Virus record (IMG/VR): IMGVR_UViG_3300050821_003463 | Location: 30,544-94,543 of that record | DNA: 64,000 bases | Source: a virus | Direction: 5' to 3' (one strand) | Shown here: positions 24,250-41,510 of the stretch, piece by piece | How positions within the stretch are numbered: position 1 is the stretch's first letter | How the letters are laid out: every line of letters begins with the position of its first letter | Notes under the pieces: model-generated | What the model saw: the letters and a program-made list of their open reading frames with translations, nothing else | Database searches by the model: none | Told to the model about the DNA's origin: nothing | Position numbers and translations under genes: made by a program

Positions 24250-24465
24250 TTACTGCTTCAGCGTGTTCTTGTGCTGAGCAGGCTTGTTGAATTCACCCTT
24301 GTGTGTGACCTTCACGGTTTGCCCGATTGCATTCCCGAAAGCCTGTGCGACTGCGTCGCAGCCTTTGCCCTGGTACCCATTCAGGTCTACCGTTTGGTCG
24401 CCGGTGGCGATGTCAATGTTGATGGTGATTATCTTAGCCAAAGTGCCCTCACTTTCGGTTGTCAA
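24250..24465 (-). CDS. DUF2997-like protein
   Basis: ITINID..G...LNGYQGKGC...KGEF; adjacent to DUF1257-like gene. Confidence 0.7.
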   Translation of the reverse strand: MTTESEGTLAKIITINIDIATGDQTVDLNGYQGKGCDAVAQAFGNAIGQTVKVTHKGEFNKPAQHKNTLKQ

Positions 24466-28456: not shown

Positions 28457-28705
28457 TTAGAGTTCTTCGAGTCGAGGTGCGGTGCGATACACCAGACCGG
28501 GGGTGAGCCGTTCTTTGAACGCGGCATCATCCAGCGCACTCTGCCAGCGCGACCAGTCATCAGGCCACGCGCCCCACAGTGTCCAGCGCGTGACTGCGTT
28601 CTTGCAAGCGGTGAGCACTGCGCCGTAGCCTTTTTTCTCGGCGCGGGTGAGTGCTGCCTTTAATTTCGGTCCCTCTTGTTTCGCGAGTGCGTAGTCGATT
28701 GGCAT
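28457..28705 (-). CDS. Hypothetical early protein
   Basis: AGGAG RBS; GAWPDDWSRWQ. Confidence 0.55.
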   Translation of the reverse strand: MPIDYALAKQEGPKLKAALTRAEKKGYGAVLTACKNAVTRWTLWGAWPDDWSRWQSALDDAAFKERLTPGLVYRTAPRLEEL

Positions 28706-28988
28706 GTTGTCTCCTAGATGAAGCGGGTTCTAATCTTAGCGCCCAACGTCCAGCATGGACGCGGCGCGCCAAGGTTCTGTGAGCTGAAGGGGTAGTTCAC
28801 GAAGGGGTCGTGTATATTCAGTGCCTGCTCGAAGCTTATCGAGCGCTCACGAGTAGTGCGGAACGCGCGTCCACTCTCGTGTACCGTGATTGATATTTTC
28901 ATGATGCCCTCTCTACGTTGCTGCTCACAGTGCCGCAGCGCATTCAGAAGCCGCTTGGTGCGGCGCGTACTTCGTTGCATAGACCCTC

Positions 28989-29525
28989 CTACTGATGGCA
29001 CAAGCCTGATTGGATGAGCGATACTGCAGTGCGCCCGTAGCTGCCCTGCAGCGACCACGCCATGCCGTTGTCGATGAGGTGCTGGAAGAGGATCACCAAG
29101 TCATCCTGTTCGAGTTCACCGTTTTCAAACGCGATGATGTTGCCAGTGATATCATACTGCGCTCGCACGTTCTTCTGTGCGAAGTTCGTAATGATATACG
29201 CGATGCCCTGCTCGAAGGTGCCGTCACTGTTCTTGCTACCCAACCCGCCGAATGACTTCGAGCCGGTGGGCAGTGAGACGTGGATGCTAGCAGAGCCAAA
29301 GCACTCGCCGTTCGATGCGTGTGAGACGCCGTACTTGATATTGAAACCACCAGGGAGAGTCGGTTTAGCGAACGCCTGCTCCCTGTAGCAGAGCGAAGCG
29401 TATGAGTAAGCGGTGCCTTTCACGTAAGCGACCGATACGCCAGCGCGTTCAAGCTGTGCTTGGATTGACTTCAAGCGACTGTAGATGCGTGAGGTGATCT
29501 GCTTACTGCTCAGTCCTGCGCCCAT
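28989..29525 (-). CDS. Hypothetical early protein
   Basis: C-terminal LFQHLIDNGMAWSLQGSYGRTA, typical of phage early genes. Confidence 0.6.
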   Translation of the reverse strand: MGAGLSSKQITSRIYSRLKSIQAQLERAGVSVAYVKGTAYSYASLCYREQAFAKPTLPGGFNIKYGVSHASNGECFGSASIHVSLPTGSKSFGGLGSKNSDGTFEQGIAYIITNFAQKNVRAQYDITGNIIAFENGELEQDDLVILFQHLIDNGMAWSLQGSYGRTAVSLIQSGLCHQ

Positions 29526-30041
29526 GATGTGCTCCTAAAAGAGAGATTGAATAGCCTGCACAGCACCTCGCTCGCCCTTCTGTCATCTAGCGGACAGTCC
29601 AAGGCAACCACGGGGCACTGTGCAGAGCACTCAGCCCTGTTCGCGCGGCCTATATACTCTTGTGCGCGATTGTGAAGTCGAGCAGGTTGAAGTCATGCTT
29701 GACGCGTTTGAATGCTTGGTGAAGGATGTCCGCTGTATCGAGCAGCGCCTGTCCCTCTGCAGTCTTCCACGTCGTAGTGCTGTAGGCTTCGCGCAAATAC
29801 AAGTACGCGTTGCCCAGGGTATCGAGCGCCAGGACAGTCTGAAGGCCCTTGTTGTTTCGCTTGTAGCTCACTGTTTGATCTCCTTTGCCGTGTGCTTAGG
29901 ACACGGTGTGTAATCGCCCTTCGTACGCCAGAGGCAATTCGGAACCGGACAGAACTGCTCAGGATGTTTTTCTTTCGAGAGACGAACTGCTTTTGCAACG
30001 CTACCGTGTGTCATGGTGCTCCTAGTGATAAAGTCGAGGTG

Positions 30042-30078
30042 AAAAAGGTGGGGACCGAGTTCACTAGGCTCAGTCCCC
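30042..30078 (-). terminator. Intrinsic terminator-like hairpin
   Basis: GGGGAC...GTCCCC stem followed by U-run on the minus strand. Confidence 0.55.
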
Positions 30079-30592
30079 GATGCGTAAAGTGGGGGAGTAT
30101 CTTGTGTTCGATTCAACGAACTCGCACAGCATGCCGGTCGACCCTGCGAGCGCACTCTCAGATTGTGAAGGCCCGCATGCTGTACACGTTTTTGAATCGG
30201 CTGTCGTTCTTTGCGCCGTGCCCGTCAGGAGCACCGCTTGGTAGTCAGGATATTTACCAGCGAGGCGATTGTGTCTCAATCGTATAGGGAGTCTTTACCG
30301 TGCATCGTCGCCTGTCCGCTTGTGTGGACTCAGGTCTGATTACCTTCGCTGTCGCATCCTCGTTTGCGTCGGCTGTATTACTCTGCTGTGGCGATTAGTG
30401 CGGCATCACAGCGCGACTGGATTAGTGCGACGGGCTAGGCAACGATGGTTTGGAACCCTTACTCGTCTTCTATTCGGCTACTACCCGCTAGTCTCAGGGG
30501 CTTTTGCTTTGCCTCTCCCCTGTGGGCGGTTGCTCTAACTTTTCACGCCTGCTTTGTTTCGGTTCGGGTGAGTGTCTTGCACTTCCGAACTG
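30042..30592 (-). ncRNA. Candidate structured ncRNA of about 550 nt between its own promoter and terminator
   Basis: No credible ORF; dense helices and a pseudoknot. Confidence 0.55.
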
Positions 30593-30597
30593 AAACA

Positions 30598-30650
30598 ATC
30601 TTAGCTGGTGGTCTAGAACCTGTCAACAACAAAATAAAATTATTTTCAAG
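30598..30650 (-). promoter_or_regulatory. Strong sigma70-like promoter with AT-rich UP element
   Basis: TTGACA (30621-30626)-17 nt-TAAGAT (30598-30603). Confidence 0.75.
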
Positions 30651-30667
30651 CCTTTGTTATCAAACGT

Positions 30668-31081
30668 TTACGGGCGATAGTCTGCAAGCACTGCCGGATC
30701 ATAGCCCACGCGTCGCATGATCTCCTGCGCAGCGTTAGAAGGCGTTTCGCCTGTTAGGAACCCGCAACCCTTCGCGAGTCTATAAGGTATACGGACGCGC
30801 CCGAACTGTGCCGCTGTGATATCGAGCACCTCACCCTGGTATTGCCCCAGCCAATCACGCCGCAGAAACCAGTGGCTATAGCGCACGCCATTGCCGGTAT
30901 GCACGTACATCTGCGCAGGCTTGAAACCTCGCACGCTCGCCCACAGGTGATACAGCGCTTCAGACGCGACATAACAATAGCCGTTCAAAGGTTTTTCTCG
31001 CGCCTGATCCTGCCAGGATCGATCAATTAGATCGGGCGATAGTGAGTCTTGAATGCGCTGGATTAGTTTGTCGCGATTCAT
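30668..31081 (-). CDS. Papain/transglutaminase-like small protein
   Basis: GYCYVASEA...HWFL...LDITAAQF. Confidence 0.55.
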   Translation of the reverse strand: MNRDKLIQRIQDSLSPDLIDRSWQDQAREKPLNGYCYVASEALYHLWASVRGFKPAQMYVHTGNGVRYSHWFLRRDWLGQYQGEVLDITAAQFGRVRIPYRLAKGCGFLTGETPSNAAQEIMRRVGYDPAVLADYRP

Positions 31082-31755
31082 AGGTCAGCCGTGCCTCTCT
31101 TGAGCCATTGATACGTGACATACGCCAGGGGCACGAGATCAGCCGGTTGCCACGCGTACCAGATGACATAGCGCAGCGCGTGCATCATCGCCCCTCCCTG
31201 TGCCCCATTGGTTCGTTCGCAGGACCGACCACAATGCACGATGCGCCTGTGTACCGGTTGCGCCCGCAGTGCGCGCAGACAGAGACGCGTTCACACGCAC
31301 GCTCAAGTACGGGAATGATACGAGACAAGATCATCTCAGCGAATTGCATCAGTTGAATTCTCACTGCATCCTCCTCACGCGATGCAACAGCTCTGCGTCG
31401 CGACATGCCCTGCTAACGTGGTCGTAAGCCGCCTCTGCCTGCTCGCGCGTTGTCGTGATACCCTCGCGCGCCTGCGATGCGATGATGCAGCGCACGAGCA
31501 GCGCGCGCCGTTTGATTGGATCACGCAGTATCGCGCGGATGTCGACTCGCTTAGTCAAGTTCCCCTCCCTTGGCATTATCCCACGCCATCTGAATCACCT
31601 GCTCTGTCTCTGCGATGCGCCGCTTGATGATGACGCGAGCCGCAGCGCGCGCCTTATAGCAGCCATCGTGAACTCGATACCGTGGCTGCTTGCCTTGTTC
31701 TTCTTCGCTGAGATGATGCAACACGCGTCCCAGCGCGTAGATCGTGACTGCAAGG

Positions 31756-32037
31756 TTAGTTGACATATGCCACCACCTCATAGCGACCAGAGTCATACTT
31801 ATGCCACGACAGGGAGAGATAGGTATACGTGCCGACGCGCATGGGAGAGCAGTTGCCATCGCGCCCGCAGTAGATCGCGGGCTCAGTCTCCTCGAAGCCA
31901 TTCGCTGCAAGTGCAGCATCTATCTCAGCGATAGGCAGCGAGTCATGCCGCAATAGCCCCAGCGCATGCAGCGCATTGTTGACGCGTCTGCGTGCGACGC
32001 GTTCCTGCTGTGCTGTCATCTGCGTTAGCTTATCCAT
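31756..32037 (-). CDS. Hypothetical early protein
   Basis: LSWHKYDSGRYEVVAYVN C-terminus. Confidence 0.55.
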   Translation of the reverse strand: MDKLTQMTAQQERVARRRVNNALHALGLLRHDSLPIAEIDAALAANGFEETEPAIYCGRDGNCSPMRVGTYTYLSLSWHKYDSGRYEVVAYVN

Positions 32038-32636
32038 TAGAAACCCCTTTGATTGACTGTGAGGTGCGCCACTGCCGCCGACGCCTTCTCCTGTGCCTCG
32101 ACTTCACTGGAAGCGATGATCCGATTGACGCCAGTCACCTGCGTGCGCGCGCCAGCCGCACCGTTATCATACACAACACCGTCAACCATAGCAAACGCGT
32201 GATTGTTCGACCAGAGCAGCCAACGGCCCGTGCGATGTGTCCTGACGAATTCTGCGAGCGTCGCATAGCGTGCGCGAGTGTAGCGCGTGCGCTGTCCGTA
32301 TGAGTTCACAGAGACGCGCGACGTTGTGCCCACCTGCGACGCGGGCTGAACGAAGGCGCGGAAGCCGAAGATGCACTCGCCTGTCGTGGCGATATCGCGC
32401 ATGATTAAATTGACACTCATCGTCGCCTTTTTCGGCTTGCGACCGAAGCGCTTGGCAACGTAGGTATGCGCGTCCCTGTATGGCACGCCTGTCACTGCCT
32501 GCACTGCCTTGACAAAGCAGTCGTTCGTCTCATACTCGAAGCCCTCGTCTCTGGTCTTCATCGCGACGGCCTTGACGCCCGACCTGCTCAGCTTCGTGTG
32601 CTCTGTCTTGATCCGTTCGTACTCTGCGTTTGGCAT
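32037..32636 (-). CDS. Papain-fold (C39-like) protein, probably leaderless
   Basis: NDCFVKAV...HAFAMVDGVVYD; TTGCGC-17-TATCCT ends 6 nt before the ATG. Confidence 0.55.
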   Translation of the reverse strand: MPNAEYERIKTEHTKLSRSGVKAVAMKTRDEGFEYETNDCFVKAVQAVTGVPYRDAHTYVAKRFGRKPKKATMSVNLIMRDIATTGECIFGFRAFVQPASQVGTTSRVSVNSYGQRTRYTRARYATLAEFVRTHRTGRWLLWSNNHAFAMVDGVVYDNGAAGARTQVTGVNRIIASSEVEAQEKASAAVAHLTVNQRGF

Positions 32637-39991: not shown

Positions 39992-40762
39992 TCATGCGTC
40001 CTCCCGTCGAGCTAAAGTTTCAAAATACTCAGCGAGATCAAAGCGAGAGGTTCTCTGGATTTTACAGAAGCCGCAGGACTCTCCGACCGGATGAAGATGG
40101 TACGTGGAGCCAGCGGAGGGAATCGAACCCCCGACCTCGGGTTTACAAAACCCTTGCTCTGCCGTCTGAGCTACGCTGGCAGTTTTCCACACCTTATCTG
40201 GCGCGATGACATGATGCGACTCAGTCTTCGCCATCTTCGCTTCAATCTCTTCCAGTGACCAGGGCTCGAAGTCGTGACTGTCTACGCCAATATCAAAAGA
40301 GTGCCCGAGTTCTTCGATCTCCCCGTGCGAGTGTCCGTAGACGTGCCACGAACCCTTGTGCGAGTTCTGCCATACGCGCTGGGCGAAGTGAGAGATCACT
40401 ATCATATGTTTGTTGAACTTCACGCTGTGACTCGTGTTCTCTTTGTTAACTCCCCGAACCCACTCGAACTCTTTCTGCAGTGTAACGCGGCGCTCCATCA
40501 GCTCATCGTGATTGCCGTAGAGAAACGCATGTCTTCCGTTTAGACGATGAACGATGGATCGCGCTTCCATCTCACTCATTGTCTGCCAAAACATGTCCCC
40601 GGCGTGGATAGTCAGGTAGGATGGCTTATTGGGAACCTTCTTGTTGTGGCGCTCGATGATGATCTCTCTCATCTCCTCAGTCGAGGAGAACGGGCGATTG
40701 CAAAACTGAATGATGTTGTTGTGCCCGTAGTGCTCGTCACTGGTGATGAAGATTTCGCTCAT
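39992..40762 (-). CDS. Calcineurin-like metallophosphoesterase whose 3' part reads through a tRNA gene
   Basis: SDEHYGH, GD, GNHD, HF, GHSH, DIGVD. Confidence 0.9.
   Translation of the reverse strand: MSEIFITSDEHYGHNNIIQFCNRPFSSTEEMREIIIERHNKKVPNKPSYLTIHAGDMFWQTMSEMEARSIVHRLNGRHAFLYGNHDELMERRVTLQKEFEWVRGVNKENTSHSVKFNKHMIVISHFAQRVWQNSHKGSWHVYGHSHGEIEELGHSFDIGVDSHDFEPWSLEEIEAKMAKTESHHVIAPDKVWKTASVAQTAEQGFCKPEVGGSIPSAGSTYHLHPVGESCGFCKIQRTSRFDLAEYFETLARREDA
40105..40180 (-). tRNA. tRNA-Thr (anticodon TGT), CCA encoded
   Basis: GCCAGCG/CGCTGGC acceptor, GCTC/GAGC D-stem, TTTGTAA loop, TTCGATT T-loop, TCCA end; 76 nt. Confidence 0.92.
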
Positions 40763-41140: not shown

Positions 41141-41340
41141 AACCAGAAATTAACGGGGACTTTCTGTTCCAAGGTCGTCCCCTGAACCCGCTGACGCGGC
41201 AGCTTTAGGCTGCGGCGGCAAATGCTTTCGGCTTTTCAGTCGTAGCAATTATTGTTTCTGTGTCCTGTTAACGGTAGCCACAGCAGCCCGACACGCAAGT
41301 TAAAACCCTGATGCGCCGCAATCGAAACCATGACGCCCCC
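41141..41340 (-). ncRNA. ssrA: tmRNA coding piece of a permuted ssrA; tag (A)ATTEKPKAFAAAA
   Basis: 5' GGGGGCG...TTCGA at 41340; ATAATT before resume codon GCT at 41246; tag ORF 41246-41205; downstream GGGGAC/GTCCCC pseudoknot. Confidence 0.9.
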
Positions 41341-41449
41341 ATCAAAGTCGCCCACTTGACGAATCGCGCTCTGCCGTATTCCGATGAGAGCAACGGGTCG
41401 TTTTCTCGTAGTGGTCAAACACACGCCCTTGCGCTTTCTTGGGCGACTT

Positions 41450-41510
41450 TGGTGGAGGCGGGGAGAGTCGAACTCCCGTCTTACAGCGTCAATGCTAACC
41501 TTCTACGTGT
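41450..41510 (-). ncRNA. ssrA: tmRNA acceptor piece of a permuted ssrA (5' extent uncertain)
   Basis: GAC-GGGAG-TTCGACT-CTCCC-CGCCTCC-A-CCA; pairs with GGGGGCG giving G3.U70; lies upstream of the 5' piece in the transcript. Confidence 0.9.

What the first reader, a model, noticed from the sequence alone, without database searches (positions are those of the whole stretch)
30042..30650. Second large ncRNA candidate with its own strong promoter and terminator
Seen: TTGACA-17-TAAGAT with an UP element, then about 550 nt with no credible ORF, ending in a GC hairpin plus U-run. Helices: 30554-30567/30585-30598, 30495-30500/30517-30522, 30303-30308/30442-30447, 30385-30390/30407-30412 and 30109-30116/30192-30199. 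30126-30134/30175-30183 competes or crosses with 30121-30126/30145-30150, and GATTAGTGCG occurs twice. Inference: an abundant early RNA, perhaps a decoy or anti-defence RNA.
Basis: partly seen in the sequence, partly recalled or inferred. Interest (0 to 1): 0.7.

Follow-up and report, generated by a model that had tools for sequence, protein, structure and literature searches.

The report
New structured RNA in soil phages
The gene-free stretch is a real, conserved, intricately folded non-coding RNA made from a strong promoter at the head of a block of early phage genes; it matches no described RNA family, and its job is still unknown.

Summary
A near-consensus sigma-70 promoter (TTGACA-17-TAAGAT, A/T-rich upstream) is followed by about 550 nt without coding signal. 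The stretch ends in a 10-bp hairpin plus ACCUUUUU at 30078-30042.

The window is part of a 94.5-kb soil phage related to Tunturiibacter phage Tunturi_3. Three other uncultured phages carry a homologue at the same place, each behind the same promoter.

The four sequences share invariant blocks that contain 1-nt indels. They show no codon periodicity and have stops in all frames. They also show strong compensatory base-pair changes:
- In the 23-bp 3' hairpin, 12 of 23 pairs changed on both sides and 95.7% of cells are paired.
- In a hairpin with an invariant 11-nt loop, 5 of 5 pairs changed on both sides.

Two more helices are rebuilt from unrelated sequence in all four. Rfam 15 has no match.

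One soil metatranscriptome contig (261 nt, 2 differences) lies wholly inside the RNA. It is the only RNA cover in the 4 kb examined.

The terminator is found only in this phage; in relatives the RNA runs into the next gene. So "free RNA" versus "processed or regulatory leader" stays open. The decoy or anti-defence idea is untested.

Verdict: a new RNA family of four members, function unknown. This scan had also noted the stretch once before, as a "structured leader".

The parts
30627..30650 (-). A/T-rich UP-like element upstream of the -35 box
   Evidence: The 25 nt upstream of the -35 are 80% A+T, the highest among the 13 best promoter-like sites of the genome. Relatives are A/T-rich at the same place.
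30598..30626 (-). Sigma-70-type promoter: TTGACA, 17-nt spacer, TAAGAT. Inferred start near 30591.
   Evidence: The same tool calls a promoter at the homologous position in L044, L043 and L045. The start site is inferred from spacing and was not measured.
30560..30591 (-). 5' hairpin specific to this phage (an insertion relative to the three homologues)
   Evidence: Alignments A3 and A4 show a gap of about 30 nt in the three relatives.
30471..30527 (-). Block A, the most conserved stretch. It holds hairpin P2 (CAGGGG 30522-30517 / CCCCUG 30500-30495) with a 16-nt A-rich loop, then CUGAGACUAGC and GAAUA.
   Evidence: Nearly invariant in four sequences, with 1-nt indels in the loop. Coordinates.
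30447..30457 (-). P4, a small hairpin (GGU / ACC here)
   Evidence: A hairpin stands at the same place in all four with different stems: GGGU/ACCC, ACGGU/ACCGU and ACAGUC/GACUGU.
30303..30447 (-). Central domain closed by long-range helix P5 (CAUCGUUGCC 30447-30438 / GGCGACGAUG 30312-30303). Inside it: CGCACUAAUC twice (30429-30420, 30402-30393), hairpin GCUGUG/CACAGC (30412-30407 / 30390-30385), and P6 (30329-30314) with an ACAA-containing loop.
   Evidence: P5 and P6 are found at equivalent positions in all four with unrelated sequences. GCUGUG/CACAGC becomes GCUGAG/CUCAGC in L043.
30239..30259 (-). P7, a 5-bp hairpin with the conserved 11-nt loop AAUAUCCUGAC
   Evidence: 100% paired, with 5 of 5 pairs changed on both sides among four sequences.
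30218..30234 (-). P7b, a variable hairpin (GUGCUC / GGGCAC)
   Evidence: Each homologue folds a hairpin here, with a sequence that cannot be aligned to the others.
30109..30208 (-). 3' domain. Conserved AACGACAGC; P8 (30199-30192 / 30116-30109); invariant internal loop AAACG / AGUNNG; P9 (30186-30175 / 30134-30123); variable apical domain.
   Evidence: 23 pairs, 95.7% of cells paired, 12 pairs changed on both sides, 0 of 500 shuffles reach this, and slid controls reach at most 39%. G-U pairs, including two invariant positions, mark the minus strand as the folded strand.
30042..30078 (-). Intrinsic-terminator-like hairpin (10 bp) plus ACCUUUUU, found in this phage only
   Evidence: No equivalent in the relatives.
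30221..30481 (.). Stretch covered by the single metatranscriptome contig (run X2)
   Evidence: 261 nt with 2 differences. It is the only RNA cover in 28500-32500. A contig does not tell the strand.
29868..30014 (-). Next gene downstream (48 aa, Cys/His-rich), with its ribosome-binding site 27 nt after the U-run
   Evidence: No family hit.
30668..31081 (-). Upstream gene (137 aa, phrog_12251), used as the anchor to find syntenic relatives

Best explanation
This is a new family of structured non-coding RNA, roughly 420-560 nt (about 550 nt here). It is encoded by a small group of soil podophages related to Tunturi_3, which infects Acidobacteriota.

Shown:
- A conserved near-consensus sigma-70-type promoter with an A/T-rich upstream element.
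- No coding capacity.
- A conserved multi-helix fold. It has a 5' block with the invariant hairpin P2, a central domain closed by long-range helix P5, two hairpins with conserved loops (P6, P7), and a 23-bp irregular 3' hairpin (P8-P9) with an invariant internal loop.

Inferred:
- The host polymerase starts near 30591.
- In this phage most transcripts stop at the hairpin and U-run 30 nt after P8, giving a discrete RNA of about 550 nt.
- In the relatives, which lack that terminator, the RNA is the first part of the early transcript. It is probably cut free at or after P8-P9, as RNase III does at irregular hairpins in phage T7 early mRNA.

Speculative: the stable RNA then acts in trans, binding a host or phage protein through its invariant loops.
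For: Identity and homologues:
- The window is part of a complete 94.5-kb IMG/VR phage record. Its portal protein is 61% identical to that of Tunturi_3.
- Homologues were found by synteny with the flanking 137-aa gene. They were found again by three independent DNA patterns.
- nhmmer E-values are 7e-25, 9e-25 and 5e-14.
- The RNA is as conserved as its neighbouring proteins. RNA identity is 72-79%; the 137-aa protein is 64% identical.

Non-coding:
- Negative codon score.
- Mismatches spread evenly over the three codon positions. Most gaps are not multiples of 3, and there are stops in all frames.
- There are 1-nt indels inside the most conserved block.

Structure:
- P8-P9: 12 of 23 pairs changed on both sides and 95.7% of cells are paired. 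No shuffle of 500 reached this, and slid registers reached at most 39%.
- P7: 5 of 5 pairs changed on both sides.
- P4, P5 and P6 are rebuilt from different sequence at equivalent positions.
- Folding z-scores are -3.27, -2.97 and -2.71 for three of the four.
- G-U pairs fix the strand as the one read from the promoter.

Promoter: called at the same place in all four.

Expression: a 261-nt contig of a soil metatranscriptome from another sample and study equals 30221-30481 with 2 differences, and nothing else in 28500-32500 is covered.

Linkage: downstream genes differ among the four loci, so the RNA is not tied to one gene.
Against: - There are only four sequences, and they fall into two pairs for the apical 3' domain. 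Covariation counts are therefore partly inherited, not independent events.
- One homologue (L043) has no folding-energy signal (z +0.29).
- The terminator is unique to the window. In L045 the RNA abuts the next gene's Shine-Dalgarno sequence.
- No minus-strand promoter was found between the terminator and the downstream genes. Read-through must therefore occur, which fits a leader as well as a free RNA.
- The RNA evidence is one low-depth contig (depth 3.9) without strand information. Under uniform cover it would fall inside the candidate by chance about 8% of the time (my estimate, 290/3741). DNA carry-over was not excluded, because no silent stretch could be laid.
- No target, partner or activity is known.
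- Two relatives lack the RNA: G001, and the cultured phage Tunturi_3.
Confidence: 0.6

Rival explanations
1. It is a purely cis-acting leader. The folded 5' untranslated region controls the early genes behind it. It could do so by attenuation or ligand sensing at the terminator, by making the polymerase terminator-resistant (as HK022 put RNA does), or by processing that sets mRNA stability and translation. It would have no role as a free RNA.
For: - It sits directly between the strongest-looking promoter and co-oriented genes in all four phages.
- No promoter was found between the window's terminator and the next genes.
- In L045 the P8 helix ends 3 nt before a Shine-Dalgarno sequence.
- A second, shorter P8-P9-like hairpin stands between two genes, just before a ribosome-binding site, elsewhere in one relative.
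- In the window, a C-rich run (CUCCCCC, 30097-30091) can pair with the 5' arm of the terminator as an anti-terminator.
Against: - The expression platform is not conserved: the terminator is present in one of four.
- Downstream genes differ between loci, unlike riboswitches.
- Roughly 400 nt with at least seven conserved helices is far more than known put, nut or attenuator elements need (my own knowledge of those systems).
- RNA cover was seen in the RNA but not in the genes behind it (weak).
Confidence: 0.3
2. It is a replication-origin transcript: a folded primer RNA, or an R-loop made from a strong promoter. ColE1 RNA II and the T4 and T7 promoter-dependent origins work this way.
For: A strong promoter is followed by an untranslated, folded transcript of about 550 nt. 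GC skew changes near 31 kb and 21 kb without a change of gene strand.
Against: - No A/T-rich unwinding region or iterons follow the RNA. The only repeat is a 10-mer inside the RNA.
- The skew change coincides with a gene-module boundary and is not a clear extreme.
- Two related phages lack the element altogether.
Confidence: 0.05
3. It is an unrecognised or decayed protein-coding gene, or plain spacer whose hairpins arose by chance.
For: Mechanical ORFs of 69 aa (minus strand) and 89-131 aa (plus strand) overlap the stretch.
Against: - Negative codon score.
- No third-position bias in substitutions, and frameshifting indels in the most conserved block.
- The antisense ORFs shift frame between homologues.
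- Conservation of sequence, promoter and paired positions across four phages.
Confidence: 0.03

Closest known systems
GOLLD and ROOL, large ornate RNAs of phages and prophages (PMC12286853; PMC5737381)
   Same: Encoded by phages. Several hundred nucleotides long. Many conserved helices and conserved loops. No protein partner or function known. Not tied to one coding gene. GOLLD has one conserved and one less conserved half, as this RNA has an invariant 5' block and a swappable apical 3' domain.
   Different: No match to any Rfam 15 model at gathering or permissive thresholds. Not next to a tRNA island: the nearest tRNA is about 10 kb away. It sits at the 5' end of an early gene block behind a strong promoter. 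Known so far from only four phages. Oligomer formation was not tested.
Processing and antitermination elements of phage early leaders: T7 early-mRNA RNase III hairpins, the lambda N-leader, HK022 put (my own knowledge, not checked in papers here)
   Same: Placed right after an early promoter and before early genes. The P8-P9 element is a long irregular hairpin with an internal loop. In two cases it stands immediately before a ribosome-binding site.
   Different: Those elements are single or double hairpins of about 60-100 nt, whereas this RNA has a roughly 330-nt conserved domain in front of the hairpin. Cleavage and antitermination were not tested. There is no sequence relationship.
Stable regulatory RNAs cut from an operon's own leader: P4 CI RNA and P1/P7 c4 RNA (my own knowledge)
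   Same: A stable RNA derived from the untranslated start of a phage operon.
   Different: Those RNAs are about 80 nt and pair with repeated target sequences in the same operon. Here, complements of the invariant motifs occur in the phage genome no more often than chance.
phi29 prohead RNA (pRNA), cited in PMC12286853 as a functional phage RNA oligomer
   Same: A phage-encoded non-coding RNA that works as a folded RNA rather than by antisense pairing. By my recollection it also has its own promoter and terminator.
   Different: By my recollection pRNA is about 170 nt, a part of the packaging motor, and encoded at a genome end. Nothing links this RNA to packaging.

Membership tests
Any described RNA family (Rfam 15: 4227 models, including GOLLD, ROOL, OLE, HEARO, 6S, RNase P, tmRNA, group I/II introns and riboswitches) | Covariance-model score at or above the family's gathering threshold | tested here: not met
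   No hit in the region at gathering thresholds. The only permissive hit is a chance microRNA match, E 0.62. There is no hit inside the three homologues.
Structured non-coding RNA (general criteria) | Base pairs kept through compensatory changes in homologues | tested here: met
   P8-P9: 12 of 23 pairs changed on both sides, 95.7% paired, 0 of 500 shuffles, slid controls at most 39%. P7: 5 of 5. P4, P5 and P6 are rebuilt from different sequence. Caveat: only four sequences.
Structured non-coding RNA (general criteria) | Absence of coding signal | tested here: met
   plus 1-nt indels in the invariant block.
Structured non-coding RNA (general criteria) | A discrete transcript with defined ends | tested here: inconclusive
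   One 261-nt metatranscriptome contig lies inside the RNA. Strand, ends and level are not shown.
Sigma-70-type promoter | -35 and -10 hexamers at 16-18 nt spacing, conserved in position among homologues | tested here: met
   Window 10/12, L045 10/12, L043 and L044 9/12 with an extended TG. Activity was not measured.
Intrinsic terminator as the family's 3' end | G+C-rich hairpin followed by a U-run, conserved among members | tested here: not met
   Present in the window. None found on the sense strand after the RNA in L043, L044 or L045.
Riboswitch or attenuator leader | Conserved sensor joined to a conserved expression platform (terminator/anti-terminator or a masked Shine-Dalgarno sequence) and to a functionally coherent downstream gene | tested here: not met
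   A terminator in one of four. The Shine-Dalgarno sequence of L045 lies outside P8. Downstream genes differ.
RNase III processing hairpin of phage early mRNA (T7 type) | About 20 bp of irregular duplex with an internal loop, between cistrons; cleavage by RNase III | not testable with these tools
   The shape and position fit. Cleavage needs an enzyme assay.
Antisense regulatory RNA (P4 CI or c4 type) | Complementary target sites in the controlled operon | tested here: not met
   Complements of six of the seven invariant or conserved motifs tested occur at about chance frequency in the 94.5-kb genome. AACGACAGC has three sites against 0.7 expected, none in the same operon. Host targets could not be searched.

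The most novel reading that the evidence does not exclude
It is a new class of large, trans-acting phage RNA, comparable in kind to GOLLD and ROOL. The RNA would accumulate early in infection of Acidobacteriota and work as a folded particle, either alone as an oligomer or bound to a host protein. It could for example sequester a host factor or a defence sensor through its invariant loops (AAYAUCCUGAC, CUGAGACUAGC, GCACUAAU).
Probability: 0.3. Interest if true: 0.8.

Novelty: new variant of a known kind. Interest (0 to 1): 0.62.

Why it matters
Large conserved RNAs are rare in phages, and none of the known ones (GOLLD, ROOL) has a function yet. Here is another, from the almost unstudied phages of Acidobacteriota, one of the most abundant groups of soil bacteria.

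It has a clear promoter, a secondary-structure model backed by covariation, and a first sign of expression in soil. It is small enough (roughly 420-550 nt) for chemical probing or cryo-EM.

Its position at the head of the early genes makes a role in host takeover or in timing early expression testable. The finding also shows that gaps between phage genes, usually left unannotated, can hold elements as conserved as the neighbouring proteins.

Tried and rejected
- DNA search of the region against 50,697 phage records found no match. BLAST against the records of four relatives gave only chance words.
- BLAST against the phage's own genome found no paralogue. In particular there is no likeness to the other ncRNA candidate at 1790-2448.
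- The repeated 10-mer used as a search pattern gave 7 loci in the viral contigs. All are chance: none resembles the RNA outside the repeated 10-mer.
- The block A pattern searched in 185,579 species' genomes gave one hit, in Marinospirillum. It is chance, at 12.8 bits and E 0.19.
- Covariance models R1 and R2 found no further members in 19 loci with related flanking or HNH proteins. They found none in the whole records of G001 and Tunturi_3 either.
- A loop-strand pseudoknot between the P7 loop (CAUCCU) and AGGAUG was rejected: both partners are present in only 2 of 4 sequences.
- The small hairpin P3 (CGG/CCG) and the alternative helix next to P2 exclude each other. Each fits 3 of 4 sequences, so this is left open.
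- The MAFFT and RNAalifold full-length consensus was unreliable in the variable middle. I therefore tested helices domain by domain.
The contigs of the closest flanking-protein relatives (P0002-P0007, 66-75% identical) could not be fetched.
- Relatives cannot be drawn for a virus record.
- No RNA contig covers the flanking genes in run X2. A part without cover is not evidence of silence.

Full report
**What and where.**
The window is bases 30544-94543 of a 94,543-bp IMG/VR virus record rated complete. Its portal protein is 61% identical to that of Tunturiibacter phage Tunturi_3. Tunturi_3 is a 97.6-kb podovirus of the acidobacterium Tunturiibacter psychrotolerans, isolated from Arctic tundra soil (PMC11924767). 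That paper mentions tRNAs but no other RNA genes.

Genes from the left end of the window to about 48.5 kb lie on the minus strand, and so does the candidate. Its neighbours are a 137-aa gene upstream (30668-31081, phrog_12251) and a 48-aa gene downstream (29868-30014).

**Checking the observation.**
- The promoter TTGACA-17-TAAGAT is at 30626-30598. Only 13 sites in the genome score 10/12 or better, and this one has the most A/T-rich upstream flank, at 80%.
- From the likely start near 30591 to the U-run at 30042 there is no coding signal. A codon score trained on the phage's own long genes is negative in all three minus-strand frames across 30060-30660 and positive in the flanking genes.
- The 3' hairpin (30078-30050, 10 bp, -18.7 kcal/mol) is followed by ACCUUUUU.
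The first one (30554-30567 / 30585-30598) starts inside the -10 box and belongs to an insertion that the relatives lack. The 'competing' helix has one arm in the apical domain, which differs in two of the three relatives.
- The 551-nt RNA folds better than all 100 dinucleotide shuffles, z -3.27.
- Rfam 15 gives nothing here at gathering or permissive thresholds.

**Relatives.**
Nucleotide searches of the phage collection and of four related records found nothing. The closest viral contig by the flanking protein (L002) has other genes downstream.

A scan of JGI metagenome contigs with an alignment of the flanking protein gave L022. There, nhmmer aligns the RNA over about 500 nt right behind the gene, E 7e-25.

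A pattern taken from the block shared by the two sequences then found three viral contigs:
- L043, identical to L022 over the region.
- L045, E 9e-25.
- L044, E 5e-14.

Two further patterns from other conserved blocks returned the same loci or a subset of them, and nothing new.

Covariance models of the 5' core (R1) and the 3' hairpin (R2) find one copy in each of the four phage records. They find none in G001 or Tunturi_3. They also find none in 19 other loci carrying related flanking or HNH proteins. An exact-pattern scan of one genome for each of 185,579 prokaryote species gave only a chance hit.

So the family is real but narrow: four distinct sequences, all from uncultured soil phages.

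**Not coding.**
Pairwise identity of the RNAs is 72-79%. Mismatches are spread evenly over the three codon positions, most gaps are not multiples of three, and every frame carries stops. The most conserved block carries 1-nt indels in two homologues. The antisense ORFs therefore change frame between phages.

**Fold.**
I tested the structure helix by helix, because a full-length automatic consensus was unreliable in the variable middle.

1. *The 3' domain.* This is P8 (8 bp), an invariant internal loop (AAACG facing AGUNNG, with two invariant pairs inside), and P9 (12-13 bp).
   - Of 23 pairs, 12 change on both sides, and 95.7% of cells are paired.
   - None of 500 shuffles reaches this. Sliding the partner strand by 1-3 columns drops pairing to 23-39%.
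   - G-U pairs, including two invariant positions, would be A-C mismatches on the other strand. The folded strand is therefore the one read from the promoter.
   - The apical part of P9 comes in two unrelated versions: window with L045, and L043 with L044.
2. *P7.* This is a 5-bp stem under the loop AAYAUCCUGAC. All five pairs change on both sides and every cell is paired.
3. *P4, P5 and P6.* A hairpin after block A (P4), a 7-10-bp long-range helix closing the central domain (P5), and a hairpin with an ACAA-containing loop just before the 3' strand of P5 (P6) stand at equivalent positions in all four. Their stems have unrelated sequences.
4. *P2.* CAGGGG/CCCCUG under a 16-nt A-rich loop is invariant apart from one G-C to G-U change, so it neither supports nor contradicts pairing.

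Folding z-scores of the homologues are -2.97 (L045), -2.71 (L044) and +0.29 (L043).

Caveats: four sequences are few, and they are related in pairs, so the shuffle control overstates independence. The slid-register control does not have that weakness.

**Promoter, ends and neighbours in the relatives.**
- The promoter scan calls a site at the homologous position in all three relatives: TTGACA-16-TAAGAT in L045 and TTGCAA-16-TATGAT in L043 and L044. The sequence just after the -10 box is also shared.
- No sense-strand terminator follows the RNA in any relative. In L045 the 3' strand of P8 ends 3 nt before GGAGG and the ATG of a 48-aa zinc-ribbon ORF.
- The genes behind the RNA differ in all four loci.
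- In three of the four, a homologous small HNH_5 endonuclease gene sits just before the promoter. L044 has a T5orf172 gene there as well. The window has neither. These look like mobile endonuclease genes parked beside a conserved target. They do not look like partners of the RNA, since the RNA exists without them.

**Expression.**
The index of public runs found the likely source DNA sample and one soil metatranscriptome from another sample and study. Laid on 28500-32500, that RNA run contributes a single contig of 261 nt and depth 3.9. It equals 30221-30481 with two differences and lies wholly inside the RNA.

Under uniform cover the chance of that placement is about 8% (my estimate: 290 allowed positions of 3741). 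The contig gives no strand, no ends and no level, and DNA carry-over was not excluded. It is a hint that this stretch accumulates more than its neighbours, no more.

**How it most likely works.**
- *Shown:* a conserved promoter, a conserved non-coding sequence, and a conserved fold on the promoter's strand.
- *Inferred:* host RNA polymerase makes the RNA early and in quantity. In this phage the hairpin and U-run release an RNA of about 550 nt. Some read-through must feed the genes behind, because no other minus-strand promoter was found down to 28000. In the relatives the RNA is the first part of the early transcript.
- *On processing:* the P8-P9 hairpin is long and irregular, has an invariant internal loop, and is placed just before a ribosome-binding site. 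This matches what I know of RNase III sites in T7 early mRNA. A second, shorter copy of the same hairpin type stands between two genes in one relative (G006:38595-38686). Cleavage there would free the RNA with a protective 3' hairpin.
- *Speculative:* the freed RNA acts in trans through its invariant loops. I found no excess of complementary sites in the phage genome. A protein partner therefore seems more likely than antisense action on phage mRNAs. Host targets could not be searched.

The main rival is that the RNA acts only in cis on the operon behind it. Against it stand the lack of a conserved expression platform and the changing downstream genes. For it stand the position and the missing terminators.

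**Comparison and novelty.**
The RNA works most like the large ornate phage RNAs GOLLD and ROOL. Those are encoded in phages and prophages, are highly structured, and have no known function (PMC12286853). It is not a member of either family, because their models do not match. It also differs from them in its genomic setting.

It shares position, and perhaps processing, with early-leader elements of lambda, HK022 and T7, but is several times larger. I rate it a new family within a known broad kind.

The scan had noted the same stretch once before, as a 'structured leader' (e1-6064464). That is the same DNA, not independent evidence.

Noticed in passing
L054:1500-1592 (G006:38595-38686): A second, shorter hairpin of the P8-P9 type (R2 score 37.8 bits, E 7.5e-8). 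It has the loop GAACG / AGUCAA and an apical GCACUAAGUGC hairpin. It lies right after a DUF2997-like ORF and just before AGGAG and a GTG start. This suggests the hairpin is a reusable intercistronic module. The window has no counterpart after its own DUF2997-like gene (24286-24441).
   Followed up: partly
L022:2265-2609, L044:74-460 and 457-834, L045:2613-3119: Homologous small HNH_5 endonuclease genes (45-48% identical to each other) sit immediately upstream of the RNA promoter in three of the four phages. L044 adds a T5orf172/MUG113 gene. The window lacks both. They are likely free-standing homing endonucleases beside a conserved target.
   Followed up: partly
window 2575 (minus strand): A TTGACA-17-TACTAT promoter-like site with an A/T-rich flank lies about 90 nt upstream of the other large ncRNA candidate noted by the scan (1790-2448). 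That candidate shows no sequence or model similarity to this RNA.
   Followed up: partly
window 41205-41510 and 40108-40180 (minus strand): Rfam calls a permuted tmRNA (75.5 bits, E 1.1e-12) and a tRNA (64.8 bits) about 10 kb upstream of the RNA.
   Followed up: no
window 30091-30097 with 30069-30078: A C-rich run (CUCCCCC) can pair with the 5' arm of the terminator (GGGGACUGAG), giving a possible anti-terminator hairpin. It is seen only in this phage, so it cannot be tested by comparison.
   Followed up: partly
window about 21000 and about 31000: GC skew is negative on both sides but close to zero between about 21 kb and 31 kb, without any change of gene strand. The right-hand boundary coincides with the RNA's promoter.
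   Followed up: no
window 48005 (minus strand): Another TTGACA promoter-like site with a 76% A/T upstream flank lies at the far end of the minus-strand gene block. It is possibly the outermost early promoter.
   Followed up: no
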